This document shows positions 9,239-64,000 of a DNA stretch of 64,000 nt, piece after piece. The stretch is from assembly GCA_049999805.1 (NCBI GenBank), contig JBNGIO010006003.1, positions 71,897 through 135,896 on the forward strand. Direction: 5' to 3'. The stretch's first letter is position 1. Each line of letters begins with the position of its first letter. A model generated the notes under the pieces. That model searched no databases. It was not told the origin of the DNA and saw nothing but the letters and a program-made list of their open reading frames with translations. Made by a program: the position numbers and the translations under genes. The stretch is from Folioceros fuciformis (taxonomy: Eukaryota).

Positions 9239-10179
9239 CAAATTGGGGAGTGGTGTGGCCTGGCTGGTCGGAGGCCAACAATAGACAACAACTGGAGCGG
9301 ACTGTGGGCTGTGGGCTGTGAGCTGCTCATGAGATCCTATCATGAATGAAGGCGGCGATGGTCGGAAATAGCAAGATTCGAGCTCGTAGTGTTGTGGCAT
9401 GAATGCGCCAACATCCTGATGCATCTTGTTACACCGGTATGGCGAGCAAGAAGGCAGATGTATAATCATGGTGGACAGAAGGCAAATTGTGAGGGAAGGG
9501 TGAGATANNNNNNNNNNNNNNNNNNNNNNNNNNNNNNNNNNNNNNNNNNNNNNNNNNNNNNNNNNNNNNNNNNNNNNNNNNNNNNNNNNNNNNNNNNNNN
9601 NNNNNNNTCCGGTGGCTGCACATGTGGTGCAAGGACGAAGTGTACACAGTCCATGGTGTGCAGCAAAGGTATGTAGTGGTTCAGGGGATTTGGTGCAGGA
9701 ACTTGGAACTAGTAGTGGTCCTGCAATTGCTGCTGGTATTGGTACTGGTACTGTAACGGGTACTGGTACTGGTACTGGCAGTGTGGTCTCTGTTTAACTG
9801 CTAACCGCATGGATTGTTTGTTGTACAACAGTACAGTAGAGTACAGGTGAGTGTTCCGTCCGCCAACCAGAAGCCGGTTCATGGGGAAGCGGGCACATTG
9901 AATGCCCAGCCGACAAAGGTCTACCTGAAATAGGAGGCCGCATTTCCGGGATGCCAAGGTGTACCGGTAAGAGGCTTTTCCTATCCCCATGCGCGTGTTC
10001 CAAATTCTCCAGTCCCGCCCGCCCTCGGCCGCGCCTGAATGCATTTTAAATGGAGGGAGGAGTGTGTAAAAATAGGAGNNNNNNNNNNNNNNNNNNNNNN
10101 NNNNNNNNNNNNNNNNNNNNNNNNNNNNNNNNNNNNNNNNNNNNNNNNNNNNNNNNNNNNNNNNNNNNNNNNNNNNNNG

Positions 10180-16555: not shown

Positions 16556-19500
16556 TTAGTGTCGCGATCTCACAAGCTTGAGAGCTAGAGCTTCCTGTTC
16601 AGCCAAGGACAGATGAGGTGCACGCCCTTCACCTGTGTCGTCGTCGTCCCGGTCGCTCCCAGCGTCTGAGGCCGCTGGGGACCGACTGCCGGCATCAGTA
16701 TCGTCTTCACTGTCACCTGTGTCGGCCCCAAGCCTTACTCCGTCTGCCTCTACCTCTGAACCCTTCCTCAACTTCTGCATCTTCTTCCGCCTCCTCTCCC
16801 GCAATCTCTGCTTTTCCAGCAGCCGATCTTCCTTGTCCCGCCGCTTCATCTCGTTCTTGAGCCTCGTGTTTCGCTCCTCAGCGGCACGAGCAAGATCTTC
16901 TGCAAACACCAGGGACACATGTGAGTCATGATCATGGATACAGTGCAATCGTGGGCATTGCAATGAAAATCAACTGAGATACCTTGTTCGTCCTCCTGCT
17001 CCTTCTGGAGTGCAAGTGCTTCAAACGGCGTGACAGCGTTTCCATCTTCGTCGAACACCATACGTTGGCCACCAGCTTTGCTGGAGTCAATCTTCAACAC
17101 TTTCTTCTTCTTGGAAACCTTTACTCCAGAACTGCGCACCAATTCCAATACTCAGGCACCCATGCTAACCGCAGAGAACAAATCATTGCAGAAAGCGAAA
17201 TACCGATGGCAAAGTACGAACCTCTTCGCTGCTCCTACACCTCCTGAAGTATCTTCCGGACCTGCTTGCCTTCGCAAGGTCCTACTACTGTCGTTTTGGA
17301 CCCGGAACATAAACTCCTCTTCAACAGTGGGCTCATGAGCCCGCATTTTCTCATAGCTCGCAGACAGCACATCTGCATTTTTGCGTCTGAAGAGTCGGTC
17401 GAGTTTGGACGCCTTCTTCTTCGCGTTGACATCACTCTCAGACAGCCATGTAGAGAGAGACGCGACATCAACCTCCGCCTGCGCTCCATTCTCGACATGT
17501 GCGTCCTCGTCCGTAGTCTCTGACCCTTCGTGCTCATTGTCATCTGCATCATCATCCGAGCCCTCGACCACCCGGTTCATGTTTCTTGGGGCATTCTTAG
17601 CCACTTTGGCAGAGGAATTCTTCAGAAACCGGATGCGAGGAGTCGATGGCAGTCCCATGGATGCTGCAAACTCAGCGAGTGGAAGTTTTGCGACGTCAAA
17701 CATCTCCTTGTCGGGACGCAAATGGAGAGAACGCATATATGTGACGAATGCTCGCTGGGCAAGATATTTTAACTCAGGACTCTTGGAGAGCAAGCCTGCC
17801 AACGCGTGTGAAACTTGCTGCACCTTGTTCGTATTTGCCTGTGGGAAGTGGGCAGGGAGTGCCATCAGGTTAGACACAAAACAGTGCATTGGAGTCGGCA
17901 TCCAAGGAGGACTGACGCACTGGTGCATGATCCATACCTTAATCACTTTGATAGGGATCTTAGATGCTTCGAATGCAGTCAGCATCTTCTGCTCTGCAGA
18001 TGTCAGAAACAGTAAAGACCGCCCTGAGGCAGTGTACCGAGCAGTCCGTCCAACCCGATGAATATAAGTGGCAACGTCTTCAGGACAATCCACCTGGGCA
18101 GCCAAAGGTGCACATGATCAGAAGGCGTTCAGAAAAGCTTTGTCATTCAGGCCAGCGGACCTTCCTTACCACCATCAAGTGAAATCTAAATGCACCACAC
18201 CTGAACCACCCAGTCTACTGCCGGAAAGTCAAGTCCTCTTGCTGCCACATCCGTAGCAAATAACAGCGAATGGCGACTTTCGCAGAATTCAAAGAACACC
18301 AAAGACCTTTGCATCTGCTTCATTCTTCCATGCAAGCATTTGACGGGCACTCCTGGACGCAGCTTTTTGAATACTTCGCTCAAAAACTTGACCTGCAGCA
18401 GATGAACAAGTTGAGTGACAAACGTGATCCACTTGCACATTCACACAGAAAAAACCGTAATTTTTTTTGATCTGGCCACGCAAGTTCCAGCAGCGGGAGA
18501 ACCAGACCTGCTTACAAGATGACAGGAAGACCAGCATCTTAGAGCGAAGATGCGACTTGACAAAGCTCCACAACATATCTAACTTCTCCTCCAAGGGCAC
18601 AATCATGGCAGTCTGCTGCAGTCTCGCCGGCGTTGCCGTGGTCGACTCTGCATGCACAGACAAATACTCGGGATCCCGCAGACTGAGCCTGGCAAGATCT
18701 TGCACAGATCGAGTTTGCGTGGCCGAGAACAGGAAAGTCTGCCGCTGCTTTGGAAGCTGTGCCAGAATGGCATTGAGAGTCTTGGCGAATCCCATGTCCA
18801 AAATGCGGTCTGCCTCATCCAACACCAGCACCTGCCTTGTGACCACCACCAACCCCCCACGCATTAGTTGTTATGGCTGACCAGACTAAACCTCCTTCCG
18901 TCCAGCTCAAAACATCCAAATCCGATGATCCAGCAGCACTTGCCCAGACAATGGTAGGGATCACTGCATGAACGTGCAAAGGTGGCCTGAAGCTACTAGA
19001 TAACTGAAAACCCACCTGGAGCTGGGAACAGTCGAAGTTGGGCGTCTCGTCCATATGCTGCAGCAGGCGACCTGGCGTGCACACTAGAACATTGAGCGAG
19101 CTGACGTGACCTTTCTCCGTATCCACACCCTTCCTCCCCCCGATCAGCAGGCCTCCACTGAGCGAGTGGTGCTTGCCCACCTTCTTCAACTCATCAAAGA
19201 TCTGCACTGCCAGCTCGCGCGTAGGCGAGATAATGATTGCGCCCACCCCATCCAGAGTGCCCCACCGAAGCCGAAACAATTTCTCGATCACCTGCCAACC
19301 CAAAAGCCCGTCAATCTTAGTCTTCGTACCAAGACGCGCCGCCATCCAAACAACCAAAACCCATCCACCAACCCACCGGCACGAGAAACGCCAAGGTCTT
19401 GCCAGACCCAGTTTTGGCCGCCCCGAGAACATCCCTCCCACACAGAGCGTGCGGGATCGCGGCCTTCTGAATCGCAGTCATGCGCGTGTAGTGGGCATCC

Positions 19501-23856: not shown

Positions 23857-24284
23857 ATTAGTTTGTGGACTCGACCGTTCCGTAGCGTTTAGGGACTATG
23901 CTCTCGGGAGGGCTGCGTGCCAAAGTAGTCACCTCATCCGCCAGAACTGGAGTCCGCTTCTCCTTTGGAGGCTGGTAGACCTGGCTGTTGAAAACGAACC
24001 GATCACACCTGTCGGAATGACAGCCGTTGTAAATGTAGAAGGCATCTCTCCCGAATGTTCCGTGTAGCCGCGTGTTGCGGTCTGTGCAATTGCCATGTTG
24101 GGTCGGTCTTCCGATCTTCGAGCCCATTTCTTTGGATCCTACTTACTTGGCAGTCGCTGCAATTGGATGAATTGGATGTTGGTGTAGGAAGTATCGGTAA
24201 TAGTGGTCGTGAGTCGCAGTGGCATGTTGTTGGACGTGCCGGTGATCCTGGTTACTCACCGGTGGAGGAGAGGGAAGCGGAGGG

Positions 24285-25151
24285 ATGGCTTTGGTTGTCA
24301 CGCCGGGAGTGGTAGATCCTGCTGCGTATCCGCTGCATCGTAGCAAGGTGGTGTATCTCGTGAGACATGGCCAGGGCTTTCACAATGTCGCTGGCGAGTT
24401 GGATCACAAGGCATACGAATCCACGGAGTTCTTCGACTCTAGCATCACTGCGCGAGGGTGGCAGCAGGTTGCTGCGCTGCGGAAGCATGTGCGCAGCACG
24501 GGCATCTTGGACGATGTGGAGTTGGTGGTGACTTCGCCTTTGACACGAACCATGCAAACAGCGTCAGGGGTTTTCGGAGGTGGCGATGTTATCCAGGGCG
24601 ACTCCCGTCCTCCTCTGATGGTGCAGGGAGTGGGGAAGGCGGATCACGCCGCCGTATCCAGTGCGTCTGCGCCGCCGTTTGTAGCCGTGGAGTGGTGCAG
24701 GGAGCAGCTCGGGATCCATCCTTGCGATAGGCGGCAGACTATCTCGGAGTATAAAAATCTCTTTCCTGCTATTGATTTCTCGGAAGTGGAGACCGAGGAG
24801 GACACCTGGTGGAAAGCAGACGTTCGGGAGACAAAGGAGGAGTTGTTCACTCGAGCTAGGGTTTTCCTCCGATGGGTGCTGGATCGCCGACAGACCAGGA
24901 TCGCTGTTGTCACTCACAGTAGCTTTTTGAATCATCTTGTTGGCCTGTTTGGTCACGATTGCACAGAAGTGGTCAAGATGGAGCTCACGGCTGGATTTCG
25001 GAATTGCGAGATGCGGTGTGTCGTCGTCGCCGATCGTGACCCTAAATCGTCAGATCCCAGCGGTCCGGTGCTTAATTTCCCTGGAGGCTCGCCGCCTGGG
25101 CCATCGGCTGGTAGTGACTTTGCAGATGCGAGTGAGAACGGGTCGGTGTAG
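24285..25151 (+). CDS. Phosphoglycerate mutase-like histidine phosphatase, intronless CDS
   Basis: LVRHGQGFHNV, SPLTRTMQTA, CREQLGIHPCDRR, IAVVTHSSFL and FRNCEMR motifs. Confidence 0.93.
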   Translation: MALVVTPGVVDPAAYPLHRSKVVYLVRHGQGFHNVAGELDHKAYESTEFFDSSITARGWQQVAALRKHVRSTGILDDVELVVTSPLTRTMQTASGVFGGGDVIQGDSRPPLMVQGVGKADHAAVSSASAPPFVAVEWCREQLGIHPCDRRQTISEYKNLFPAIDFSEVETEEDTWWKADVRETKEELFTRARVFLRWVLDRRQTRIAVVTHSSFLNHLVGLFGHDCTEVVKMELTAGFRNCEMRCVVVADRDPKSSDPSGPVLNFPGGSPPGPSAGSDFADASENGSV

Positions 25152-25959: not shown

Positions 25960-27175
25960 TGGAGAGGAAGGATTTTAAGATCGCCTATGTTGGATGAATA
26001 GACTGGAGAGGAGGANNNNNNNNNNAGATCGCCTATGTTGGATGAATAGACTGGAGAGGAGGATTTTAAGATTGCCTATGTTGCATGAATAGACTGGAGA
26101 GGAGGATTTTAAGATCGCCTATGTTGCATGAATAGACTGCAAATTTGTTTCAGGAGAACGTCTGAAATGTGCTGCCCACATTTACATTGTCGGAACGGGC
26201 TGCTGTGGGCATCGCGCCCTTACACAGTGCTTTGCAAGTGCTGCTGGAGGGCTATGCTGACACGGTCGTCTGGATTTACGACTTGGAATTTACATCAACA
26301 GAATTTACATCAATGGTCGTCTGGATTTACGACTTAGAATTTACATCAACAGAATTTATATCAATGGTCGTCTGGATTTACGATTTGGAATTTACATTAA
26401 CAGAATTTACATCAATAGAGTTTGCATGAGCGCACACTCACAGCGTTGTTTGGGAGGGCTATGTGAGTGTTGTTTGGGAGGGCTATTGTGGGCAGCACAC
26501 CCACACCGTGTGCTTTGGGGGGTGTTGTTTCCCATTTTAGGACTTGGAATTTAGGATCAAGTCATGCCCACACACCATGCTTTGGGGGGTGTTGTTTCCC
26601 ATGGATTTAGGACCTGGAATTTCGGATTAGGTCATGCACATTCACAGGGTTGTTTGGGAGGAGGTCATGCACACTCACAAGGTCGTTTGGGAGGGCTATT
26701 GTGGGCAGCGCACCCACACACCCCGCTTTACCACAGCCCAACTAAGCACCAAATCAACTTGCCTAAACACCAAGTCAGCTTGCCTGAACACCAAATTACC
26801 TTGGCTGAACACTACATCAACTTGTCTAAACACTACATCACCCTCGCTGAACACAAAATCAGCTTGCAAAGCACTTGTCTAAACACTACATCACCCTCGC
26901 TAAACACAAAATCAGCTTGCCTTCATACAAAAAGAACCTACTTGAACACAAGATCAGCCTGCCTAAACACTAAATCACCCTGGCTGAACACAAAATAAGC
27001 TTGCCTTAACACTACATTAGCTGAACACCATCACATCCTCATTGAACACCAAATTAACCCAATACCCACCAAATTTGCTAAACACCATCACAACCCTATT
27101 AAACACCAAAGTACCCTGGCTACACACTAACCAAGTACTTATATCCAACAAACATAAACACCAAATGACCTGAAT
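25960..27175. repeat. Minisatellite cluster inside the MULE: 43-bp x about 4 (25960-26140), 51-bp x3 (26264-26416), TTGTTTGGGAGGG blocks (26430-26720), about 21-bp AACACCAAATCAGCTTGCCT array (26740-27175)
   Basis: Tandem units read directly from the sequence. Confidence 0.85.
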
Positions 27176-27246: not shown

Positions 27247-29977
27247 TTACCAAGTGCCTTTCTTCTTCTTTGGCCGTGACCGTTCTTCAATGCCTCTAAA
27301 TTGTACCAGCTTGTTTGTTCCATTGTTTGGGACCAACTCCTCTATCCTTGTCATTGTACTTGAGGCCTCATCCTTCCGAGCCGCAATCTCCCTAATACGA
27401 TGTTGTGCTTGTTCCATTATTGCACAAACCTCAAATAAGATATTAGGTTGTGGTTCGACCATGCTTGGAATACTCATACATATTGCATCCAAGTCTCGTC
27501 GTCTTTTCAACTTCAACTCTTCTAAGTTTTTGGGTTACCTCAAACTAGGTGTCACACTGCAAGTCGTGCTTTGTAGCATTACTTCCTGAGGGTTATGCAT
27601 TTCTGTCACATTGGTCTCAACAACAACATTGAGGTCAGGTAATGCACTACCTCCATCCTCTGCCCCAGCATGATATCCATTGGTACACCATGCAAGGTGC
27701 AAAACATGAGAAGTATGTTCAAATANNNNNNNNNNNNNNNNNNNNNNNNNNNNNNNNNNNNNNNNNNNNNNNNNNNNNNNNNNNNNNNNNNNNNNNNNNN
27801 NNNNNNNNNNNNNNNNNNNNNNNNNTGCACTACCTCCATCCTCTGCCCCAGCATGATATCCATTGGTACACCATGCAAGGTGCAAAACATGAGAAGTATG
27901 TTCAAATACACCACAAACTTGTTGCACCTTCACAACATCTTTGCATAGAAAACCTTTTTGCCCCATTGCACAACTACAAAATGCCCACGGTAAGTGTGCT
28001 GCCTCAATAACATATATTTTCTCACTACCTACAGAGGACATGCAATATGCCAAAGTAGACCCATCATCTAACGGAAATGTGACAGCTGTGTTTGGAATGG
28101 TTCTTACTGCAAATAAAACATGTTCATATACCTTCTCTAGCTTCGAATTTGGCCTGTAACCACCAGCCTTAGTGAAATCAAGGTACCAATAATGACGTTC
28201 TACCTCATTCACTAGTTGATGCAAAAGCCAATCCATACGCCTTCCTGGTAGCGCTGCTTTAGTGAAAGACACTCTTTCCTTCAAAAAGCGATGAAAGGCC
28301 TCCAATGCAGACGTGGTATCCTGTCCGGCGTGAGGATACAACGTGCAATTCTTCAACCACATATCTGCCAAAAAAAAAAAAACACCAGTATACTCCTCAC
28401 CCAACGTACGTCCAAGAACACAGCCCTTAAATCACGAAAAGGACACTGCAACATAGAAGCAAAATACTTATAGATTCGCCCCATTGTTTCTTGAAGTACT
28501 CAACAAATGTTGGTTGGCTTCCATGCCACTCCTTATAGAAGAACTCTAATAATACACTAGCCCATGCAACAATATTCTCATTTGTGCCATGGCCTTTCAC
28601 ATACATAATATCTGCAAGCGCAGCCTAAATTTTCTTCCTTGCAATACTACATATCACCTTCCTCAAAAGGTTTCGTTGCCATGCCTTCCTAACATGCCAT
28701 AAGCACAACACAACATGTATATGTGCCCCTCATTACTGTTTCAATGCACCTATGTCTGCCAAACAATTATCAACTAAAAAACAACTAGGAACCCATGTTG
28801 CACATGTGTTGAGAGCTACTTGTTGGAGCAGCTTCAACCATGATACTAAAGAAATGATAGTACTCTCCTGTGTTAGTGCCCAAGCAACTGGAATACCATT
28901 TAGGTGTTGATTAAAAACCATCACAGTGAATAAGTGGTACTGATACTTGTTCGTACCAAATGTGGCATTCATGGCTAAAACACTATTTATCCTATGCTTA
29001 ACTAACATTTGCTGCATGAAAGGAGTTTGCAATCCTAAAACAAATGGTTCACCCGGCTCTGACCTATGGAAGATAAGGTCAGGATTCACTTTTAACGACA
29101 TTTGGGTTGACTTTGCATCATCTGCACGGAGTTTCCACTCACTTGATTCCACCTCCCGTTTCATGTTCAACACATCCTTGCGCTACATGTAGTCGTCTCG
29201 AATGTCATCTCCAGGTCCATGTTCAGAATAGTGCGCCATCTTCTCGTACACAACTGCAATATGTCGACGCATAATCTTCGACATAGAAACCTTGCAATAA
29301 AGACAATGTTTCACCCAATCCTTCTCCTTCGAAAGCCAAGGAGCTCTAGACATTTTAGAATGACCCACATATTGTGGGCCGTGACAAACTTCACATTCGC
29401 GATCTACATGCTCTCCTTCACGAAGGAGGATTTGAGCCACATCTGGAAATAAAAGCAACTGCTTTACAACAAAATCTGCCATACATCCAGTTTTCATTCG
29501 TACATTCTTCGGTGTCGTGCATTCTCTATAATCTTGCAGTCCATATGAGCACCAATATCTACATAGGTAGTCAAAATATATATTAGGCATATGTACCCTT
29601 CAAATTGGTAACTACATCATGTTAGATTTAGTGGGCACATAACCTAGCAAAGAAAAAGTCTTGTCAAACTTAAACATAGTAACCTACAAACATGTGGTTA
29701 GAAAAAGCTATGGAGTGCAACAACTTGGAGGAGGAGATCAATCATACCTAATGTATGAGCTTGCAGTCTCCAGGGACGGCACAATTGGTATATGCAAGGA
29801 ATGTTCACTCTTCGAATCCTTCCGGTAGAAGCTTGCAGCGCATCTCAAGCCTTCTCCAGAAACAAAGTCATCCACTCTACTCCAAGGAATATAAGCAACC
29901 TTCATGTCCTTCACTACCTGCCAGCTTAAATCATCTGCACTGAACTGCCCAAGTGTCGGCGATTGAATGGTGTGCAA
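27247..29977 (-). pseudogene. Decayed MULE-type DDE transposase with SWIM zinc finger (At1g60560/At4g13970-like family)
   Basis: FSADDLSW..VAYIPWSRVDDFVSGE; YWCSYG..GC..FVVK..CHGP; FVLGLQT..AMNATFGTNKYQYHLFTVMVF..GIPVAW; LEAFHRFLK..RRMDWLLHQL; SWIM CSC..GFLCKD. Multiple stops and frameshifts. Confidence 0.85.
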
Positions 29978-41789: not shown

Positions 41790-41975
41790 GTCTGCTTTAG
41801 AAAGCACTGATTTATATCTATAGGCTGGGCTGGTCTGCTTTAGAAAGCACTGATTTATACCTATAGGCTGGGCTGGTCTGCTTTAGAAAGCACTGATTTA
41901 TANNNNNNNNNNTATACCTATAGGCTGGGCTGGTCTGCTTTAGAAAGCACTGATTTATATCTATAGGCTGGGCTG
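41790..41975. repeat. 43-bp tandem repeat (4 or more copies, spans a gap) in the RPS16 copy-2 promoter
   Basis: Unit GTCTGCTTTAGAAAGCACTGATTTATAYCTATAGGCTGGGCTG at 41790, 41833, 41876 and 41933. Confidence 0.9.
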
Positions 41976-53789: not shown

Positions 53790-54110
53790 ATGTCGCCTCT
53801 TAGTCATGCAGATGTGTTGCCATCTTGTCCTTGCTTCATCACCTCTGTGTTACCTTGGTACCTACTTGCGCCTTCCTTTCTTCCTTCTTTCTTGCATGTT
53901 GCAATGTCTTCTCTTAGTCATGCTTGCCCCTTCTGTACCTTGTTACACCTTCCTTCCTTCCTACATGTTGCAATGTCTTCTCTTAGTCATGCTTGCCTTA
54001 CACCTTCCTTCCTTCCTACATGTTGCAAATGTCTTCTCTTAGTGCTGTAATGTCTTCTCTTGGTCATGCTTGCGCCTTTTGTCCGCAGTGTTTCTCTTAG
54101 CCATGTGGAA
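53790..54110. repeat. Degenerate tandem repeat (ATGTTGCAATGTCTTCTCTTAGTCATGCTTGC core)
   Basis: The core recurs about 5-6 times with variable spacing. Confidence 0.75.
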
Positions 54111-55331
54111 GCATTTCATAACCGACTTGTGTCTTCTTGCTGTGTCTTCTTGCCGCACTACATTGTGGTACAGTGAACTTTATGCCTTGTGCTCGTGCAC
54201 TTTGATGAGACAGTTGTCTACCTTTTCTAGCTCAATAAGTGAACTCATATATAAGTTCTAGGGCTAGGCAAGTCAACTCAGATAATTCAAAGTGTAGACC
54301 TACCTAGAGTTTTTGCAGCTCGCAAGCTCGTTCGCTCCCAAGGCATGTAAAGCAAGCTCCTTCGCTCCCAAGGCATGTAAAGCTTTTACAACTAGCCAGT
54401 CCCATTGGATAGGGCTTCTAGCATAGGTGTCTACCCCATTGCGTACGGCTCTCACAAGCTGTGAGTGCCATAGAACCTTTTAGGGTTTTGTGTGTATAGA
54501 ATTATATGTGTAGATGAATCCTCTAGGACACAGAGGCACATTCTAAAAGGGCCCTTTGAGACAAGGAAGGAAGGCACATTGTGGAAGGGCTCTTTGACCA
54601 AGGGAAGGGATGCTGCATGAAGTAAGATAGATAAACATTGAAGTGGGAAGAAGATAGCTCCGGTCGTTGGACCTTTGGCGTGGTAGGATTCAACAAAGAT
54701 GTGAGAAACGACGTGCAAGATAAAATATGTGACAGAAAATGAAAATAGCTAATATAGCGAGAGCCTTACGTTGCAACGGAGTTGGTGAGGCCGAGTGTTG
54801 TGTGCAAAGACGATCGACCCTACAGACACGATCGTCACCAGGGACATCTCGACGACGTCCGGGCCTCGTCTCCACGATATCCCTGCCTCGTCTGCGGAGA
54901 AATATCCCGTAAATCGATGGGGACGTGGAGTGACAGGAATCATCAACAGTGTGCGGGAATCGTAGTTTACCACGCAACCTGAGTTGGAATCGGCAGTTTT
55001 ATACACACAAGTGTCCCCAAGGGAGCAAGCAAGTCACCGCGGTGGAGGGGCGATGCCGGAAGGTTTTGTGGACGACTTTGGAAGGACGAAGTACATCACG
55101 AAATGTAGGAATCAATCACACGAAACAGACGCCATTGGAATCACGCAAACATTGCACTTCTCGGAGGCGGCAGCAGTGTTCCCACCATTCCACTCTTGGC
55201 TTCCTCGATTTCCAGACTCCGGACGACTTTCCTCATCACCACCTACTGAGGCTGTAGTTTGGTGCCTTCGTAGCACGTGGATGGGATGTGGAGAGAGGCT
55301 CACCAAAATTGTTGTAACTCGTTTCTTCCTT

Positions 55332-58300
55332 TTACCCTGTGAGAACTCCTGCTAGAATCTCGCTCTTGCCACGAACTGTAATGGTGTAGGCGAGGCGGAT
55401 GGCATCCAGCCACCCTTCCATCAGCTCCCAGGAATCTGCTACCTGCAGGCCGACATCGTTTTCAGGATCAGAAGAGAGGCTGGGGTTCAGGTGGCGGACA
55501 GCAGGGAGAACGTGGAGACCGGACTCACAAAGTATTGTTGCCTGGTGCTTGTGTCGATCCGGAAGCCGCCCCCCACAGGCAGGCTCAGGTCGGCAGATGG
55601 AGTCATGTAGACGATGTCCTCCAGCTCCATTCTGAAGGAGGAGATCTTGACCGGTGTCTTTGCCATGGACGGACTCGAGGGCTCCGACCCGCCTGGGTTA
55701 GTTATCCTTCGCGAGAAATTTTTGGCGAGCTTCTCTTCTGGTTTATCCATCTTGCAGGTTACACGGTCAAGATCGATTCACGTTAGGGCTTACAAAACAT
55801 TCCTCAGCACTCAAAAGTGAACCAGGTAGGTGCACTGAAGTTCGATAGATACCTCGTAGAACGCCTCATGGTCGATGACAAACCACAACCTCTTCCAGTC
55901 ATTATGCGGGGCTAGAGAATCATCCCCGGGATGAACAAGCAAGTAGCCTGCCTTCAGGTATGGCAGAGGAAGCTGCAGCCATTGCAAACACTGCATGTCA
56001 GATGGACGTTTCATCACGCGTCACAAGAACACAATCCCAAAATTCTCATCGTCTTCTAATAGACTCAGGAGGGGACGAACGAGCACCATTGATCTGACAA
56101 GCCGAAGAGCACTCCTGTAAACCTGCCGGCTTCAACCCACACAAGACTAACGGTGAGAACACAACACAGCACAACTTCAATTGGGCGTGAAGCCTACCAG
56201 AGCCCACAGAGGAAACAATCTACAAACTTCGATGGTTCAAGAGGATCCAATGACCAACCGGATAGTCGGGCTTCAAAGAATGTGCAGCGGCGATGTAGAT
56301 GGCTGATTGGCTGTACAGTTCAGAAGGCATGTGGTCTGGTCGAGATACTTTCCGACCACTTCGAAGCGTGTCCTCAGCTAGGCCATACTGCACATGGCAC
56401 AAGGAAGTTATTGGCTTGCAATATGCATTTCAGGAGTGAAATGCAAAAAAGGGGAACCACAGGGCTCCGTCATCTCAACACACTCACCAGGACAGTACCC
56501 AGGTTGTACACTGCTCGATGAAAGTCAAAGCGGAGTCCTATTGCAGCCCGAAACTGCAACAGAATCAAACGAGTGGTGAGTTTCTCCCTTAGGCAAAATG
56601 GATGAGGCAAAAGTGACGACAAAAATTGCAGCTCAACTGTCTTTCACCCTTGAAAGCAATCGACTCGTGGTGTCGGTGAGCGAGAGAGGGGAATGGGTGG
56701 CGGTGGGGAATGAGGGTGCTGCAGTCTATACTTAGCTTACCTTTCTTATTGCACTCCTTATGATTCCACGCTTCTCCTTAAGTGGAACTATAGCGCCAAG
56801 CTCCTGCGACAGTCGACACCCTTCAGAAACTTTGCAAACATATCACACGGGACCAGTCCGTGTTGCAAACAGTGGGTTGTCCCACCTGCAGTGCCAGTCC
56901 CCAGTTGTTGAGAGCCTGCAAATCACCACAAGAGTTAATCGTCTGTGCTAGGCAGTTACTCACGACAGCACCCTTTTCAATACAAAAGCAACTGCTGATC
57001 TACAAAAGAATGCCCTGAGATGCTAGGGCCCAGGCATCCACCTGCGGGCTGTTCCAGTTGAGCTGCAAAGACCTTTCGTACTTCTCACAAGCCTGCACAG
57101 GTGCCCAATGACCCCACTTATTTCTATCCCCACTGCGAGGACTGAAGGGACCCTAAACTCGAAGCCTGCAATGCACAATCCAATCCCATAAACTTGAAGC
57201 ACAAACAGGGAAGTTGGAACAAAACCTGCTTCCAAAGTTCCTCTGCCTCCTTGGTTCTACCCCTGATCTTTGCACGATCAGAAATGGCAATCGCCCAGTT
57301 GTAGTACGCCTGGTTGCAACCATCAAACTCTCACTGTGAGAATCGCTGAATAACACATGAACAACAGCTTCTCCCACCACCGGAAAGATGGCCCCAGGGC
57401 CCGGAAACTGGAAAATACAGGGTGTTCACACCTCATGGAGCGACGGGCAGATACTAATCGCAGCTTCGTACTTGCTGCACGCATCTTCAAGCAGCACATC
57501 CTTTCCCGGGGGGCCACCATCTAGTGGCGTGTTATCCGCGGTTTCCTGCGCCCACGTACAAAGAAAAGACTCTGAAAAGAGCAACGCCTCCTGAGCCCCC
57601 AACCCACAGTCCCGACGATCATGACACCCAACCTCCCACGAACTCCGCACCAACTCACCTGGAGCACCAAAGCCCAATTGTACATGGCATCGAAGTCATC
57701 CGCGTTGGCAGCAACCGCCCTGGAGTACCTGAACCAAAACAGCCCAAATCCCACAATTCAGCATCCCGATCCCAGGATCTCGCTCACTCACAATCCAATT
57801 CTCACCTCCTGGCAGCAAAAGACAACATCCTTTGCCGAGAGTGCTGATCATCCTCCCCAGGCACTGCACTACTGCGGANNNNNNNNNNNNNNNNNNNNNN
57901 NNNNNNNNNNNNNNNNNNNNNNNNNNNNNNNNNNNNNNNNNNNNNNNNNNNNNNNNNNNNNNNNNNNNNNNNNNNNNNCTTCTCCTCCACGATCTCACTC
58001 ACATGCGCTTGAACTTCCACGTGCACTTGCTCCCCGGTCACCTGCTCCTCGATCTTCCCCAGCTGCCCCTCCACTTTCTCTTGCTCCTCAATCCTCTGCT
58101 CCTGGATCCCATTCCCATGCTCCTCGATCTCACCCACCTGCCCCTGCACCTGCTCCCGCTCCTGCTCCTGCTCCTCGATATCGCCCGACTGCTCCTTAGC
58201 CTCCGTCACAACCTCGGGGTGCCCCTCCACAGGTTCCTCGATCTCACTACCCCGCACGGCCTCCTTCCCACAGTCCTGCTCAGGCTGCTGATCAGCCTCC

Positions 58301-58464
58301 TTCCCAGAGTCCTGCTCAGGCTGCTGACCAGCCTCCTTCCCAGAGTCCCGCTCAGGCTGCTGACCAGCCTCCTTCCCAGAGTCCTGCTCAAGCTGCTGAT
58401 CAGCCTCCTTCCCAGACTCCTGCTCATCCACGAGCACCTCAGAGTCCCCGGTTGCCGTGGCCAT
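55332..58464 (-). CDS. HLB1: HLB1-like TPR protein with C-terminal PH-like region; multi-exon, interrupted by an N gap
   Basis: [69 protein letters not shown] and [11 protein letters not shown]; acidic repetitive N-terminus. Confidence 0.88.
58255..58425 (-). repeat. 36-bp coding repeat x about 5 ([12 protein letters not shown]) in the HLB1 N-terminus
   Basis: Visible in both the DNA and the translation of ORF 57802..58602. Confidence 0.9.
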
Positions 58465-58730
58465 CCCGGGCATCCACGATCTCCAGGGCTGTAGTAGAGG
58501 CCCGCCTAAATTGAAAATTCGCGACTCATTTCTGATGCCCAGCCCTTGGCTAGCATGCTCTGGTGGGCTCACCTGTGCGCCAATTTTATACAACCCCGCC
58601 ACATAGCGGCAAAGAAACCATGGGACGAAGGAAGCTTCCGGTTTCCGCCATGCCCTAAATCTCGGACTCGTTGGTACACATGGGGCGACTGGGCCTCGGA
58701 CTGGGCGGGTCTGCGCTGTCTTTGCATTTA

Positions 58731-61700
58731 CTACTGGCTATCTCCGCAAGAACAGAAGCCATCCTTAAACCGATGAACGCGATGGGCATCTCTAATAATT
58801 ATCTCTCGATGTTCTATTCTCGAGATGACCTTGGTGCCGGCGTGGCAATGGCCACACATCCTGAGATTCTTGCTGACCACCAGAGTGGTGCCCGGAGGGG
58901 TGTTGAGGAGGCCGAAAGCTAGAGCCAGCTTTTCGGCATGTTTGCACAAGGCATCTTCACTTTCCTGGAGAGGTCCAGGCCCGAGCACCGGGTTCGAGTC
59001 CCTGCATGCCTCGAAAAGTGTGTTGAGGCTGTTGAGCTTGGCCGAGGTGTCGTCCCTACTTCTGCCTACTATGAATTCGTGTACCTGGCTACCCACCTCG
59101 ATGAGGGCCCTGGCGGGCTTCTTTTGGGCACCTGCGGACTGCATCATGGTTTCCACTTGGTCAACATCCGCCCACCTGCCCGCTTCTGCGTAGATGTCGG
59201 ACATGAGGGCGTAGGCGGAGGCATGTTGGGGTACCAGGTTCACGAGGCGGTGGAAGCAGCTCCTTGCTAGCTCGACATGGTTGTGGGCCTTGCAGGCTGT
59301 GAGGAGAGATGTCCACCCGATGGAATCCTGCTGTAGTGGCATTGTGTGGAGCATGGTTGCTGCTTCCTCCAGCCGGCCGGACCGCCCCAGGAGGTCTACC
59401 AAGGAGTTGTAATGCTCGACCTGGGGCTGGATGCTGTAGTCACGGGACATCATGGTGAAGTAGTTCTGGCCCTCGGTCACTAGACCCGCATGGCTGCATG
59501 CCGCCAGCAGACATGTGAAGGTTGCAGCATCAGGTTGGACTCCCTCTTCCTGCATCCTGGCGAAGCACTGCATAGCCATGGCGCAGTTGTTGTGCTGACC
59601 GTAGCCGCCGATGAGGGCGTTCCAAGTCACCAGATCCTTCCTCCCTGTACTATCGAATACACCCTGTGCGTCCTCCAGGTATCCGCATTTTGCATACATG
59701 TCCACCAGACTGCTACCCACAAACGCGTCATTTTCAAGTCCCTTGTGCAGGATGTCAGCATGTATCTGTTGTCCTTCCTGAATGGCTCCCAGTTTGCCAC
59801 AGACCTTTAATACACACGAATATGTGACAAGGTCAGGCGTCAAGCTTTCTTGCTGCATTCTGAAATATGCCTTAAGGCCATCGTGGCCGAGCCCATGCTC
59901 CGCGCATCCGGCGATGAGGGTGTTCCAGGTTGCCACATCTTTTGTCTGCAACCTTTCGAACAAGACACATGCATCTCCCATGCTTCCGCATTTGATGAAC
60001 ATGTCTATCAAGGCGTTCCCAACGCACAGATCTGATTCAAGTCCTCTTGCCAGAACCTCAGCATAAACCTTCCTGCCCTCCTCTAAGTTTCCTAAGCTAC
60101 CACATGCTTTCAAAATGCTTACATAGGTGAAATTGTCTGGGACCGCGGCACTCAGAAACATGCTCCTGAAAAGTTCTATCGCCTCTTGCCCCAGCTCATG
60201 CTGAGCGTAACCTGCAATCATGACATTCCATGTCACCAAGTCCCTGGCCAGCAATCTGTCGAATACTCTGCGAGCATCCTCCAAGCTCCTGCATTTGGCG
60301 TACATATCAACCAACATGCTCCCAACCAGCTCGTCCTCCTCAGCTCCTCTTTCCAAAATTTGGACATGAATCTGCCTGCCTTCGTGTAAGTTTCCAATGA
60401 TAGCACACGCTCTGAATAGGGCCGCATATGTGGCATTGTTAGGCACAATTCCATTCCCTTGCATCCTCATGTACAGCTTGTGGGCTTCATCCACAGGCCC
60501 CTGATGGACGTATCCCGCAATCATGGCAGTCCATGAAACCACGTCTTTTGAAGGCAATTTGTCAAACACCCGTTGGGCATCTTCCATGCTTCCGCATTTT
60601 ATGTACATATCTAACAGACAGTTTCCCAGTGAGCTATCAGCTTGAAGTCCCCTTTCAAGGACACGGGCATGAATCTGCTTGCCTTTCTCCAAGTGCCCTA
60701 CACTGCCGCATGCTTTCACAACAGCGACAAGGGTTACATGATTGCCTGCCAACTTCCCATCCTGCTGCATAAGGGCGTAAAGTTGAAGCGCTTCTAGACC
60801 TCGTCCATGCTGAGCATATCCTGCAATCATAGCACTCCATGTCACCACGTTCTTTTTTTGCAGTCTGTCGAAAACTCCGCGGGCCTCCTCCAGACTACCA
60901 CATTTGGCATACATGTCGACCAAGGTGCTACCAATATAGATATCAGCTTCCAGTCCCCTTTTCAGGACCTCAGCGTGAATCCCCTTCCCCTCTTGTATAG
61001 CTCCGACATTGCCACATGCTTTAAGAATGCTGACAAATGTGAAGTGGTTTGCTGGACACTTGCCCTCCTGCTGCATCTTCACATAAAGACTGAGCGCTTC
61101 CTGACCACACCCATTTTGAGCATAACCTGCAAACATAGCATTCCATGTCACAACATCTGTGCTCGGCAAATTGTCAAAGACATATCTGGCCGTCTCCAGG
61201 CTCCCACATTTAGCATACATGTCTACAAGGGCGCTCCCGACAAATACATTTGTGTCAAATCCATACTCCACCACATCCGCATGAATCAACTTGCCTGAAT
61301 CTAAATCCCCTGCACTGGCACATGATTTCAGGACAGCAGCCAGCACAAAATCAGTCGGTCTGACACTTGATTGTCGCATTCGCACATACAATTTGATAGC
61401 CTGCTCAGCCTTTCCATGGTCACAGTGTGCTGAAATGATCGAAGCCCATACGAAAGTGTCGGGAGCAGCCAACGTGTTAAAAACCCGCTCTGCTTCCATC
61501 AAACTCCCCGTGGCAGCGTACATCCGAATCAGGTAGTTCGCCATGAAACAGTCCAACGCAGACCCAACTTGTCCAGAGAGGGCATGGACACGCCTGCCCA
61601 CCTCAAGGTTTCTAGTCGCAGTGCACCCTTTCAGGAGAATGTACAACATGTCATTCGGGATGGAAATTCCTCTCCGGTGCATCACGTTCACAGCCTCCAG

Positions 61701-61802
61701 CGCACTTTCTAGCGCTCCCTCCGTCCCGAAATCTGCAAGCTCCAATAGGTCTTCAACAGCCCCCATCCTGCAGGGTCGATCAATACTGTACCACATAAAC
61801 AC
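58731..61802 (-). CDS. PLS-class PPR protein with E1-E2-DYW:KP domain (candidate U-to-C organellar RNA editing factor)
   Basis: About 23 P/L/S motifs, E1/E2, then KPARALIEV, HAEK, KNLRMCGHCH and C-terminus CSCGDSQ. Likely two small upstream exons from an ATG at 62200 splice to an acceptor at 61767. Confidence 0.95.
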   Translation of the reverse strand: MFMWYSIDRPCRMGAVEDLLELADFGTEGALESALEAVNVMHRRGISIPNDMLYILLKGCTATRNLEVGRRVHALSGQVGSALDCFMANYLIRMYAATGSLMEAERVFNTLAAPDTFVWASIISAHCDHGKAEQAIKLYVRMRQSSVRPTDFVLAAVLKSCASAGDLDSGKLIHADVVEYGFDTNVFVGSALVDMYAKCGSLETARYVFDNLPSTDVVTWNAMFAGYAQNGCGQEALSLYVKMQQEGKCPANHFTFVSILKACGNVGAIQEGKGIHAEVLKRGLEADIYIGSTLVDMYAKCGSLEEARGVFDRLQKKNVVTWSAMIAGYAQHGRGLEALQLYALMQQDGKLAGNHVTLVAVVKACGSVGHLEKGKQIHARVLERGLQADSSLGNCLLDMYIKCGSMEDAQRVFDKLPSKDVVSWTAMIAGYVHQGPVDEAHKLYMRMQGNGIVPNNATYAALFRACAIIGNLHEGRQIHVQILERGAEEDELVGSMLVDMYAKCRSLEDARRVFDRLLARDLVTWNVMIAGYAQHELGQEAIELFRSMFLSAAVPDNFTYVSILKACGSLGNLEEGRKVYAEVLARGLESDLCVGNALIDMFIKCGSMGDACVLFERLQTKDVATWNTLIAGCAEHGLGHDGLKAYFRMQQESLTPDLVTYSCVLKVCGKLGAIQEGQQIHADILHKGLENDAFVGSSLVDMYAKCGYLEDAQGVFDSTGRKDLVTWNALIGGYGQHNNCAMAMQCFARMQEEGVQPDAATFTCLLAACSHAGLVTEGQNYFTMMSRDYSIQPQVEHYNSLVDLLGRSGRLEEAATMLHTMPLQQDSIGWTSLLTACKAHNHVELARSCFHRLVNLVPQHASAYALMSDIYAEAGRWADVDQVETMMQSAGAQKKPARALIEVGSQVHEFIVGRSRDDTSAKLNSLNTLFEACRDSNPVLGPGPLQESEDALCKHAEKLALAFGLLNTPPGTTLVVSKNLRMCGHCHAGTKVISRIEHREIIIRDAHRVHRFKDGFCSCGDSQ

Positions 61803-62978
61803 AAGCTACTGACCCCAAATAGCTATCAACATGCCACTGCACGCCAAATACCTGAAAGAGTTTCCTTGGTTACATCCGTAGTCAACAACTGCGTCCCCAA
61901 CTAGTCCGTTCCTTGAGGGCAGGGCAGGAGCTCCCCCTGAACCCAAGTTTCGTCCAGTGCTTGATTGAGACCCAGGACAGAAGGTCCCCCTTGTCGTGCA
62001 GTGCATGAAGGCCGGATACATGCAGTTTCTCTGTGGTGATCACCGATAGTCAACTGGAAACTGTGGGCAAAGCAACGCTGGCCAGGTCTCAATGACCATC
62101 TCGAGCCTTGCACAACCCAACCAGATGGCAGGCAGATTGGAATCACAGCAGATTTTACCTTTAAGAACCCCCAATTCCACGACTGAGAGCGAGCGGCCAT
62201 GATTGTTGCCCCCATAACACCCCGGCCAATTGCAACACCTGCAAACCAGCTCAAACATCAACACCCATCCAGCAACCTCCTGCCAATCTAATCCGAGCCA
62301 TCACAGATACCCTGCGCATGACAACAGCTCACCATTTTCACATGGGTGGCGCTCAGCTGAGGCCCTTAAGGTCGACAAGCGCCTATACCATGCTTTCAAT
62401 GGCACGACAGGGCTGAATCTGCTCTGATTCAGCCAGGCCAGCACCATTCTTCCCTCAAGACGACCACTTCTCTTGGTCGCCCAGTGAGGTGACAGACTGC
62501 GGGGTAAGAAGTGCACAGGTACGCCTGGTACTGGGAAGCTGGACGTAGCGGCCTGAAACAGGCAGAACAGTAGTCGTTCTGTAGTTCATCGGGTGGATGA
62601 AGTCGTCCAGATACAACAAATCGTGTTCTCAGCTTTGATACATATATGTGAAACTTGCTGGGTACCGGCAAGTGACAGCATTGCGCACCTACAGCTATGG
62701 GTAAGTGCGCAAGACAAATTCTTGGTAGACCTTAGGGTTGTCTAGGGGTAGCTCTATGAAACGAGAAGGCGACAGCTTTCGATTCGACTCTTGAATCAGG
62801 ACAAGGTAGGCTGGATCCACTACAGGTGAATAGAATCAAAGCGTAGAACAGGGAAGGGCTCGTGCCAGGTATGGGGGCGTTGGAGAGAATGAGCTTGTGA
62901 GCTTTGGCTCATCAATCTTGGATCTGGGAATGTGAAATTGGCAGCTGTATCCATTGTTCCTGCTGGGGCCGTGGCGGA

Positions 62979-64000
62979 ATGGCGGTCTCGAACGGCGAGA
63001 CGGGTGAAGGTGTAGAGGAACGCATCAGGGGTATTCTGCGGGACCTGCATCTTCCGGAGACCAGGGCAGATCATGTTGCAGTGGATGGAGAGATCAGAGA
63101 AAGTCTGAAGAGCGATCAGGTGTTCTTCAAAGCATTTGCTGGTGCCTTAGTTCTGGCGGCTGAGAAAACTTGGCGCACAGGGGCAGGATCTGCGTGTTAC
63201 AAACTGTTAAGATGGTCATGTATTCTGATTAGAGAGTGCGCTGAGATCGTGTCTTCAAAATCTGCGTTCTCCAGGTTAGTTTCTGTACAGGGGTCTTTAC
63301 TCTACGGACTTGCAGGGGCGTCTCGTCGACTGCAAAATGCTAGCAATCGCGCTATATTGCAATTGCTTTCCCAGAAACCCAATCTTGCCAAGCGTTATGT
63401 GGCTGAGCTGCAGGGGAGTGCTGCCGATCCGGTCAGCAGCAGTGGACTCGCCAGAGTTCTCATTCAGCTTGCAACAAGGGATGCAGAGTTTCTTGAGGAG
63501 CACAGGGCAGCTTTCCTTGGACTGTATATCTCTCTGGTATGGTCGTCCAAGGAGAAGCCGTCCAGGAGGTTGATTGAAACATTCCGGCCTCTTCTGAGCA
63601 TCTTAAATCACAGTGAATTTGGGAACGTGGTGCAGCCTGCAGTGGTCAAAATGCTTCGCAGGAATCCGGAAACGGTGATGGACGCTGCCTGTGCTCTTTT
63701 CAGCTCAGTAAATTTGGACATGAGTAAATATGCTGTGGATGTCTACACAGCTATTCTCCCACAAGCTAGGCATAGTGATGAAGGGAGGCGGAAAGACAGT
63801 GCCACTGTGGTAGGCAACTTGGCTTTGCACACGAGTGACCAAAAGCTTGTACTGAGCATGTATCAGACTGTCAAGTCGGTGTTGGGCGGGTCTGAAGGAA
63901 AGCTGACATTCCCGTACCAAAGGGTGGGTATGATCGGAGCAATTTCGGCCCTATCGAGGACTGAAGGGGGCGAGCAAATTTCTTCTCTTGCTGCCTCAAT
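62979..64000 (+). CDS. GCN1: GCN1/ILITYHIA (eIF2-alpha kinase activator), 5' part; runs off the window end
   Basis: Open frame from the ATG at 62979, translated by hand: FFKAFAGALV..CYKLLRWSCIL..VKMLRRNPE..LDMSKYA..QARHSDEGRR..VLGGSEGKLTFPYQRVGM. Confidence 0.9.
   Translation, partial: MAVSNGETGEGVEERIRGILRDLHLPETRADHVAVDGEIRESLKSDQVFFKAFAGALVLAAEKTWRTGAGSACYKLLRWSCILIRECAEIVSSKSAFSRLVSVQGSLLYGLAGASRRLQNASNRAILQLLSQKPNLAKRYVAELQGSAADPVSSSGLARVLIQLATRDAEFLEEHRAAFLGLYISLVWSSKEKPSRRLIETFRPLLSILNHSEFGNVVQPAVVKMLRRNPETVMDAACALFSSVNLDMSKYAVDVYTAILPQARHSDEGRRKDSATVVGNLALHTSDQKLVLSMYQTVKSVLGGSEGKLTFPYQRVGMIGAISALSRTEGGEQISSLAAS

What the first reader, a model, noticed from the sequence alone, without database searches (positions are those of the whole stretch)
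58731..59121. DYW:KP domain with an atypical DSQ terminus: candidate natural U-to-C RNA editing enzyme
Seen: KPARALIEV replaces the PG box, HAEK replaces HSEK, the segment after HEFIVG is shortened, the zinc ligands HxE and CxxC are intact, and the protein ends CSCGDSQ. Established: KPAxA-type (DYW:KP) domains are confined to lineages with reverse U-to-C editing (hornworts, ferns, some lycophytes), and engineered versions catalyse U-to-C; described termini include GRP, DRH and DYW. Inference: a reverse-editing factor with a variant terminus and a divergent gating region (it lacks the usual GY.P-like motif), useful for mechanism and RNA-editing tools.
Basis: partly seen in the sequence, partly recalled or inferred. 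Interest (0 to 1): 0.75.

Follow-up and report, generated by a model that had tools for sequence, protein, structure and literature searches.

The report
KP-type DYW editing factor, variant tail
This is an intact, transcribed plant gene for a PPR protein carrying the KP-type deaminase domain linked to U-to-C RNA editing in organelles; it is one more member of a large known family, notable only for an unusually loose regulatory loop.

Summary
On the minus strand, 58731-61796 is one open frame of 1021 aa. It has a PLS-type PPR array, E motifs and a C-terminal DYW deaminase domain. The domain carries every KP hallmark: KPARALIEV, no xHP, HAEK, KNLRMC with the Lys88 equivalent, RDAHRVHRF, and the end CSCGDSQ then TAG at the canonical position.

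My own profiles score it 178.8 bits as KP and 132.9 as PG. Three trees separate it from PG at 99. It lies outside the DRH+GRP clade (98). It sits in an unresolved grade of 14 domains, of which the 13 of canonical length (query included) all end D-x-x, each with a different tripeptide. DSQ is therefore not exceptional.

More distinctive features:
- a shortened, unconserved beta-finger linker
- His in place of the near-invariant Asp of CxDCH

RNA contigs of the same species cover the coding frame from codon 11 to the stop without a difference.

The best reading is a native, probably hornwort, organellar U-to-C editing factor. Activity, target and targeting peptide are untested. It is a new member of a known kind and of modest interest.

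The parts
58731..61796 (-). Genomic open reading frame of the PPR-DYW:KP gene (1021 aa including the first ATG; stop TAG at 58731-58733). No intron in the coding part.
   Evidence: RNA contigs collinear with the genome over 58355-61766 with 0 differences and 0 gaps
59325..61655 (-). PLS-type PPR array (residues about 48-824): L-S, then six P-L-S triplets, then P2-L2-S2. Boundaries set by my own anchors and therefore approximate.
   Evidence: Pfam PPR 1.3e-107, PPR_2 1.7e-107; motif parse
59100..59285 (-). E1/E2 motifs (residues 838-899)
   Evidence: Pfam PF20431 E_motif E 6.7e-15, residues 838-899; three helix pairs in the model
58734..59120 (-). DYW:KP deaminase domain, 129 aa counted from the K of KP
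59094..59120 (-). KP box KPARALIEV (KPAxA in place of PGxS)
58956..59012 (-). Divergent, shortened linker in the position of the gating-domain beta-finger (EACRDSNPVLGPGPLQESE); no G[HY]VP motif. The conserved Pro is Arg and the conserved Lys before the catalytic helix is Ser.
   Evidence: AF2 pLDDT about 53 at residues 938-947 against 93-95 in a DRH-type control
58932..58940 (-). HAE: zinc-binding His, KP-type Ala, catalytic Glu
58869..58871 (-). Lys976, the equivalent of Lys88 of the 133-aa KP numbering (K of KNLRMC)
   Evidence: alignment; role from PMC11845758 (results section read)
58842..58856 (-). CGHCH: CxxC zinc ligands plus the first Zn2 His; His983 replaces the Asp found in 94% of the other KP domains and 97% of PG domains
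58734..58754 (-). CSCGDSQ: the two Cys ligands of the structural zinc and the terminal tripeptide DSQ
   Evidence: ligand assignment from PMC7611903 (passages read)
61767..62699 (-). Inferred 5' leader. An RNA contig continues from 61766 to 62330-62699 with 287 letters between. The only GT/GC-AG two-intron model that fits has exons 62329-62699 and 61874-62158 and introns 62159-62328 and 61768-61873. It puts an in-frame stop three codons before an MMGAVEDLL start.
   Evidence: (record 11); inferred, because the contig itself was not seen

Best explanation
This is a nuclear gene, most likely of a hornwort. It encodes a PLS-class pentatricopeptide repeat protein whose repeats bind one organellar RNA site and whose C-terminal KP-type DYW domain converts the uridine about four nucleotides downstream of the S2 motif into cytidine.

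Shown here: the architecture, the KP classification, an intact catalytic and zinc-binding set, and transcription.

Inferred from published work on synthetic KP proteins: the chemistry. Lys976 (the Lys88 equivalent) is freed because the two serines that tether it in PG domains are alanines here (KPARA and HAE). It attacks C4 of the uridine, and the zinc/Glu centre completes the exchange.

Inferred from the sequence only: the loose, shortened beta-finger and the loss of the CxDCH aspartate suggest that this lineage relies little on the auto-inhibited ground state described for PG domains.
For: Architecture: PPR, E motif and DYW_deaminase hits.

Fold: AF2 pLDDT 90.1. Foldseek best hits are 9kfx_A (E 4.7e-19, TMq 0.83) and the OTP86 DYW domain 7o4f/7o4e.

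KP features: A3 and A5 of KPAxA, HAE, K84/M88 (Lys88/Met92 of KP numbering), V115, no xHP.

Profiles built without the query and its six nearest kin: KP (DRH/GRP-like) 178.8 bits, KP (fern-like) 165.6, HCE type 154.0, PG 132.9.

Trees: the PG split has SH-aLRT 99 in all three. The query lies in a group of 25 (90; 88) or 39 (85) HAE domains that includes named hornwort sequences.

Zinc ligands and catalytic Glu: H, E, CxxC, H, H, CxC are all present.

Expression: run X2 is RNA. It holds 11 spliced joints in the neighbouring gene that DNA run X1 lacks, and it has depth 0 over 54000-54667 where X1 has 11-13. Its contigs cover 58355-61766 with 0 differences. A second species' RNA run (X4) holds a copy about 91-95% identical.

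[quoted passage not shown] Three of seven synthetic KP proteins made U-to-C (PMC9478123, sections 6, 7 passages, 12). Lys88 is essential for it (PMC11845758, results). Ser828 and Ser893 tether the equivalent Lys in OTP86 (PMC7611903, passages).
Against: No activity, target or localisation was tested.

No N-terminal presequence is evident. Both the genomic start and the RNA-based start give an acidic N-terminus (MMGAVEDLLELADFG...) that runs straight into a PPR-like motif.

Deleting the beta-finger of OTP86 markedly reduced editing, and D922A lowered activity (PMC7611903, passages). The query is divergent at both places.

The DRH-based synthetic KP1 was among the four of seven designs not reported active in E. 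coli, and KP6 did both reactions in human cells (PMC9478123). The KP type alone therefore does not fix direction or activity.

In KP6 the last residue (F133H) and residues 64 and 113 shifted the balance towards C-to-U (PMC11845758). The query has untested residues at all three (Q, K, I).

The species is inferred, not known.
Confidence: 0.58

Rival explanations
1. It is an active editing factor, but one that makes C-to-U changes or works in both directions despite its KP-type domain.
For: It keeps everything needed for canonical deamination: HxE, CxxC and the Zn2 ligands. Synthetic KP6 did C-to-U in vitro and both reactions in human cells (PMC11332814 abstract and discussion; PMC9478123). Single changes at KP positions 64, 113 and 133 pushed KP6 to C-to-U (PMC11845758), and the query has non-consensus K, I and Q there.
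Against: Lys88, whose loss is what switched KP proteins to C-to-U, is kept. So are A116 and V119, the states that favoured U-to-C in KP6 (PMC11845758). The KP subtype is confined to lineages with U-to-C editing (PMC13386178).
Confidence: 0.12
2. It binds RNA but is catalytically weak or dead. It would be a decaying paralogue, an RNA stabiliser, or a helper acting with other factors.
For: The beta-finger region is unconserved in length and sequence across its nearest relatives, and AF2 is unsure of it. The near-invariant Asp of CxDCH is His, Pro40 is Arg, and Lys54 is Ser. Removing the finger or mutating D922 lowered OTP86 activity (PMC7611903). No presequence is seen. A hornwort relative (P0276) has gone further, with HVE and Thr for Lys88.
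Against: The frame is 1021 codons long and transcribed in two species. All zinc ligands, Glu, Lys88 and the Asp/Lys pair of the tail are intact. At least ten relatives with the same kind of linker also keep them, which points to selection on the catalytic core.
Confidence: 0.22
3. It is a pseudogene or an assembly artefact.
For: There is an assembly gap (N run 57879-57978) about 750 bases beyond the stop. Many paralogous PPR contigs pile up on the repeats.
Against: DNA and RNA contigs from separate runs match the gene with 0 differences. There are no frameshifts or stops in 1021 codons, and the stop is at the canonical position.
Confidence: 0.03

Closest known systems
Hornwort DYW:KP proteins of the DRH and GRP subgroups (basis of synthetic KP1, KP2, KP3; PMC9478123)
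   Same: KPAxA box, HAE, KNLRMC, RDAHRVHRF, no xHP and the same PLS-E1-E2-DYW build. 51-62% identity over the last 184 residues to unnamed DRH/GRP-ended proteins, and 56% to a named Nothoceros one, P0232. The profile of this group gives the best score, 178.8 bits.
   Different: It lies outside the DRH+GRP clade (SH-aLRT 98). The tail is DSQ. The linker is 3-4 residues shorter and lacks G[HY]VP. CGHCH replaces CxDCH, and Leu6/Ile17 replace Cys6/Thr17.
Fern/lycophyte DYW:KP (basis of KP5, KP6, KP7)
   Same: KP hallmarks and Lys88; Leu at position 6, as in KP6. The profile of the fern-named group scores 165.6 bits.
   Different: The fern group forms a separate clade (97-99) holding named Adiantum, Ceratopteris and Pteridium proteins. 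Ferns have E64, 'CC' in RDxCC.HHF and mostly D-x-F tails.
Arabidopsis OTP86 DYW domain, PDB 7O4E/7O4F (DYW:PG, C-to-U)
   Same: Deaminase fold, both zinc sites, catalytic Glu, the Lys before the CxxC, and the Asp of the tail with its Lys partner. OTP86 itself ends DSW, so Ser in the middle position is not unusual. Foldseek E 3.2e-10 to 9.9e-09 for the four chains listed, ranks 2-5; sequence match 77.8 bits.
   Different: PG box with Ser828, HSE with Ser893, xHP, a conserved beta-finger, Asp922 and terminal Trp960 (PMC7611903). In the query these are Ala, Ala, absent, degenerate, His and Gln.
Synthetic PPR-DYW protein with RNA, PDB 9KFX (PMC13324415)
   Same: Best structural and sequence match in the PDB (127.2 bits; TMq 0.83, 43% identity), covering E motifs plus DYW.
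   Different: It is a PG-type C-to-U editor. By sequence search, no KP-type structure is in the PDB copy: all 3 distinct matches are PG type.

Membership tests
PLS-class PPR-DYW RNA editing factors | Array of P, L and S pentatricopeptide repeats | tested here: met
   Pfam PPR E 1.3e-107, PPR_2 1.7e-107; regular 35/35-36/31-residue triplets
PLS-class PPR-DYW RNA editing factors | E1/E2 motifs between the repeats and the deaminase | tested here: met
   PF20431 E 6.7e-15, residues 838-899
PLS-class PPR-DYW RNA editing factors | DYW deaminase domain with HxE...CxxC and the second zinc site (H, H, CxC) | tested here: met
   PF14432 E 1.3e-29. H, E, C, C, H, H, C are invariant columns that the query shares. 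Fold matches 9kfx, 7o4e/f and 7w86.
PLS-class PPR-DYW RNA editing factors | N-terminal organelle targeting sequence | tested here: inconclusive
   No presequence-like stretch at either candidate start. The 5' exon model is inferred from contig piece lengths only. No predictor or import assay was available.
DYW:KP subtype | KPAxA-type box in place of PGxS, with the short deletion (no xHP) | tested here: met
   KPARALIEV and HEFIVGRSRDD without xHP; features as listed in PMC11332814 (discussion) and PMC9478123 (section 6)
DYW:KP subtype | HAE instead of HSE | tested here: met
DYW:KP subtype | Lys88 (and Met92) before the CxxC | tested here: met
   KNLRMC; K in 100% and M in 100% of the 32 other KP rows; role from PMC11845758
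DYW:KP subtype | Groups with KP and not with PG domains | tested here: met
   46 bits more for the KP profile than the PG profile; PG split at SH-aLRT 99 in three quick trees. The careful bootstrap search did not finish.
DYW:KP subtype | Host belongs to a lineage with U-to-C editing | tested here: inconclusive
The nearest named relatives are Nothoceros (hornwort), in the same 39-row group. The neighbour's short introns (82-187 nt) and about 50% GC fit what I recall of hornwort genomes.
DYW:KP subtype | Catalyses U-to-C at a specific organellar site | not testable with these tools
   No organelle genome or editome of the species was available, and no assay
Hornwort DRH or GRP subgroup | Last three residues DRH or GRP and membership of that clade | tested here: not met
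   The tail is DSQ. The DRH+GRP clade of 25 rows (SH-aLRT 98) excludes the query when the linker, CxDC and tail columns are left out.

The most novel reading that the evidence does not exclude
The protein belongs to an undescribed hornwort KP lineage, distinct from DRH and GRP. This lineage has given up the elements that hold PG-type domains in their auto-inhibited state: the conserved beta-finger, the Asp of CxDCH, and (as in all KP domains) the two serines that tether the active-site lysine. It would be a naturally 'ungated', smaller U-to-C domain whose free last two residues tune the direction of the reaction.
Probability: 0.15. Interest if true: 0.6.

Novelty: new member of a known kind. 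Interest (0 to 1): 0.3.

Why it matters
As of PMC9478123 (2022, discussion read) no native U-to-C editing factor had been characterised, and I met none in the later papers I read. Work so far rests on consensus-designed KP proteins that stall at an RNA-protein crosslink (PMC11332814). Intact, expressed native KP genes are therefore useful test material.

This one adds natural variation at three places that mutagenesis has tied to regulation or direction of the reaction:
- the beta-finger
- the CxDCH aspartate
- the last residue

But thousands of KP domains are already catalogued (3,761 from 68 plants in PMC13386178), and this gene is one of many. Its value is as a candidate for comparison, not as a discovery of a new kind.

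Tried and rejected
- **Whole genome:** none is held for the window, so no census of KP genes or tails in this species.
- **Earlier notes of the scan:** none.
- **Orthologue tails:** contigs of two related species lie on the gene, but the difference table was cut to the best-supported rows. Whether DSQ and CGHCH are conserved could not be read. No protein closer than 64% over the last 150-184 residues was found in the three protein searches and the representative search, and the exact protein is not in the collection.
- **RNA holders:** The look-up of sequencing runs listed no holder on record as RNA. X2 and X4 were taken as RNA only after one search showed spliced joints.
- **Subgroup as a clade:** a seven-member subgroup had SH-aLRT 87 with all columns. 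It dissolved into an unresolved grade when the linker and tail columns were removed, so I do not claim a clade.
- **Careful tree:** the IQ-TREE search did not finish in 288 s. All three trees are quick trees with SH-aLRT only.
- **Co-evolution of finger loss and Asp loss:** the raw table is 9/8/2/48 of 67 HAE domains, Fisher p 2.4e-05, using my own regex for the finger. The independent-pairs test had only 5 pairs and gave p 1. Shared ancestry explains the association, so the co-evolution claim is rejected.
- **'No beta-finger' from AlphaFold:** rejected as a distinguishing feature. The DRH-type control model also has no hairpin.
- **5' end:** a one-intron model fits the contig length but not the depth at 62000. 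One two-intron model fits all constraints. It needs a GC-AG intron and remains unverified. No in-frame link from the upstream transit-peptide-like uORF to the main frame was found (reasoned).
- **Target prediction:** the PPR code could be read only roughly and could not be matched to anything, because no organelle sequence of the species was available.
- **Papers:** Gerke et al. 2020 and Gutmann et al. 2020, which define the KP subgroups, are not held, and supplements are closed. A prior description of this grade cannot be excluded. Searches for one found none. 'DSQ' together with 'DYW domain' gave 0 papers.
Full report
**What is there**

The minus strand of 58731-61796 is a single open frame of 1021 codons ending CSCGDSQ-TAG. 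Pfam finds PPR repeats (E 1.3e-107), an E motif (residues 838-899, E 6.7e-15) and a DYW deaminase domain (residues 944-1020, E 1.3e-29).

My own parse gives an L-S pair, six P-L-S triplets of 35/35-36/31 residues and a P2-L2-S2 set before E1, E2 and the DYW domain. The boundaries are approximate. It is the only DYW domain in the window. The rest of the window is ordinary gene-dense eukaryotic DNA.

Each item is correct.
- KPARALIEV lies at 59094-59120. The finding's end coordinate is one base too far.
- HAE is at 58932-58940.
- CGHCH is at 58842-58856.
- DSQ is at 58734-58742.

The tail is not a truncation. There are 41 residues from the first Cys of CxxC to the end, the commonest value among the domains examined. 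The domain is 129 residues from the K of KP. It is 132-133 in 25 of 41 HAE-type domains and 136 in 119 of 168 HSE-type domains.

**Classification**

I collected DYW domains from the searches:
- 85 hits among 363 candidates
- 3145 hits at E up to 0.001, best 150 listed
- 28 hits among 183 candidates
- 157 hits at E up to 1e-30 among 7999 scored, 120 listed

No hit was closer than 64% over the last 150-184 residues. Of 231 usable domains in the first three sets, 168 were HSE, 41 HAE, 18 HCE, 3 HGE and 1 HVE.

I built profiles without the query and its six nearest kin. They score the query as follows:

| Profile | Bits |
|---|---|
| DRH/GRP-like KP | 178.8 |
| fern-like KP | 165.6 |
| HCE type | 154.0 |
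| PG | 132.9 |

In three quick maximum-likelihood trees the PG domains are split off at SH-aLRT 99 and the query is on the other side. The trees had 89, 75 and 77 rows, the last two without the linker and tail columns. The careful bootstrap search did not finish.

The query falls in a group of 25 (support 90 and 88) or 39 (support 85) HAE domains. That group also holds the DRH- and GRP-ended sequences. Seven EukProt members of my set proved to be Nothoceros aenigmaticus, a hornwort, and one Pteridium. Three of the Nothoceros proteins (P0232, P0261, P0236) are rows of the DRH+GRP clade.

A separate clade (97-99) holds the named fern proteins: Adiantum, Ceratopteris and Pteridium. I therefore take the host to be a hornwort, with moderate confidence. 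The neighbouring gene's 11 introns of 82-187 nt and a GC content near 50% fit what I recall of hornwort genomes.

**Where it sits within KP**

With the linker, CxDC and tail columns removed, DRH plus GRP form a clade of 25 rows (98) that excludes the query. The query is one of 14 rows in an unresolved grade beside it.

Thirteen of the 14 have a tail of canonical length. All 13 start with Asp, and no two are alike: DSQ, DHV, DNH, DSI, DHH, DDL, DKL, DYV, DRP, DHL, DHR, DDT, DDS. The fourteenth (P0264) has an extended tail.

The Asp and the Lys it bonds to in OTP86 (D958-K928; PMC7611903, passages) are both present in the query. OTP86 itself ends DSW, with the Ser pointing to solvent. So only the last residue, Gln for Trp/His/Phe/Pro, is really different, and in this grade that position is free. 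DSQ is not a special terminus.

A seven-member subgroup seen with all columns (87) did not survive removal of the trait columns. I do not call it a clade.

**What is more distinctive**

I compared the query with 32 other KP domains (the six nearest kin and two atypical HAE rows left out). It departs from residues conserved at 80% or more at four alignable places:
- Pro of G[HY]VP is Arg.
- The Lys before the catalytic helix is Ser.
- Thr before Lys88 is Ser.
- The Asp of CxDCH is His. Asp is found in 94% of the other KP domains and 97% of PG domains.

It also carries a two-residue Gly-Pro insertion in the linker. The linker between helix alpha-1 and HAE is 3-4 residues shorter, and it differs in length and sequence in each of the nearest relatives.

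In OTP86 this stretch is the beta-finger of the gating domain. Its deletion markedly lowered editing, and Asp922 stabilises the inactive state (PMC7611903, passages).

More relatives with C-x-H/N/A-C-H came from the profile search: P0257, P0259, P0260 and P0264. Among 67 HAE domains, lack of a finger motif (my regex) and lack of an acidic residue go together (9, 8, 2, 48; Fisher p 2.4e-05). The independent-pairs test had 5 pairs and gave p 1, so shared descent explains the association.

**Structure**

AlphaFold with 96 aligned sequences gives a confident model (pLDDT 90.1). It is unsure only at residues 938-947, LGPGPLQESE (about 53). Its best PDB matches are the synthetic PPR-DYW/RNA complex 9kfx and the OTP86 and DYW1 DYW domains.

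A control model of a DRH-type domain (P0012 tail, pLDDT 94.9) is confident in the same region (93-95) but also shows no hairpin. The models therefore support 'shorter and less determined', not 'finger lost'. By sequence, the PDB copy holds no KP-type structure.

**Expression and gene model**

Run X2 (same species label, filed eight years before the DNA runs) and run X4 (a related species) are RNA. Both hold 11 spliced joints with CT..AC ends in the neighbouring gene. The DNA runs X1 and X6 lack these joints. X2 and X4 have depth 0 over 54000-54667, where X1 has 11-13.

X2 contigs cover 58355-61766 with no difference and no gap, so the gene is transcribed and its coding part has no intron. The contig ends coincide with those of the DNA contigs. 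They therefore mark repeats, not transcript ends. X4 holds contigs 91-95% identical over most of the gene.

One X2 contig continues from 61766 to 62330-62699 with 287 letters between. The only GT/GC-AG two-intron model that fits the piece lengths and the depth at 62000 makes 61768-61873 and 62159-62328 introns. That model puts a stop three codons before an MMGAVEDLL start, giving 1012 aa. This is inferred, because I did not see the contig.

Either start gives an acidic N-terminus with no obvious transit peptide, which I cannot explain.

**Mechanism, and what is shown**

Shown:
- the architecture
- the KP class
- an intact catalytic set
- transcription

From the literature:
- KP domains occur only where U-to-C editing occurs (PMC13386178).
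- Three of seven consensus KP proteins made U-to-C (PMC9478123).
- Lys88 is required, and its loss turns them into C-to-U enzymes (PMC11845758).
- A lysine-uridine crosslink is the proposed intermediate (PMC11332814).
- In OTP86 the equivalent lysine is tied to the catalytic Glu by Ser828 and Ser893 (PMC7611903). Both are Ala in the query.

Inferred: this protein edits U to C at one organellar site.

Mapping the KP6 mutagenesis (PMC11845758) onto the query gives the following:

| KP position | Query residue | Meaning in KP6 |
|---|---|---|
| 116 | Ala | U-to-C-favouring state |
| 119 | Val | U-to-C-favouring state |
| 6 | Leu | KP6's own residue; the Cys change favoured U-to-C |
| 17 | Ile | not the U-to-C-favouring state (Thr) |
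| 64 | Lys | untested |
| 113 | Ile | untested |
| 133 | Gln | untested |

These effects were measured in one synthetic background and may not transfer.

**Verdict**

The emphasis on the DSQ tail is not warranted. The loose gate and CGHCH are the better leads, but they are shared with relatives and are of unknown consequence.

Papers that define the KP subgroups (Gerke 2020, Gutmann 2020) and all supplements were out of reach. This grade may therefore already be described. My searches found no such description.

Noticed in passing
window 54936-57658 (-), probably extending to about 58473: Neighbouring multi-exon gene with at least 11 short introns (82-187 nt, CT..AC on the + strand). It is well covered by spliced RNA contigs in two species (depth 169.8 and 65.2). 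Its product was not identified.
   Followed up: partly
window 57802-58473 (-) and 57879-57978: An acidic open frame with tandem units of the type [11 protein letters not shown] lies just downstream of the PPR gene's stop and is interrupted by a 100-N assembly gap. Read laying skipped repeats at 58129-58184.
   Followed up: no
window 62329-62699 (-): The inferred first exon holds a short upstream frame (MVLAWLNQSRFSPVVPLKAWYRRLSTLRASAERHPCENG...) that looks like an organelle transit peptide. In the splice models I could build it ends at a stop and does not join the PPR frame.
   Followed up: partly
proteins P0022, P0033, P0037 and 15 others (HCE type): 18 domains have HCE at the active site. 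Those I read also have a KPxxA- or PGKA-like box with xHP retained, and odd tails (CQQ, EYD, TSG ...). They group on the KP side of the PG split and look like an intermediate type.
   Followed up: partly
protein P0276 (Nothoceros aenigmaticus, EukProt): A hornwort KP-like domain with HVE instead of HAE, Thr in place of Lys88, no finger motif and an extended tail. It is possibly a decayed or repurposed member.
   Followed up: no
window 3912-4793 (-), 14316-15533 (+), 17152-18117 (-), 24246-25151 (+), 62901-63998 (+): Other open frames hit a retroelement aspartyl protease, F-box plus Kelch repeats, an SPB4-like helicase C-terminal extension, a histidine phosphatase and the GCN1 N-terminal domain. 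This fits a compact plant nuclear region.
   Followed up: no
window 433-532, 9508-9607, 10079-10178, 26016-26025, 27726-27825, 41903-41912, 57879-57978: Seven runs of N (assembly gaps) in the window.
   Followed up: no
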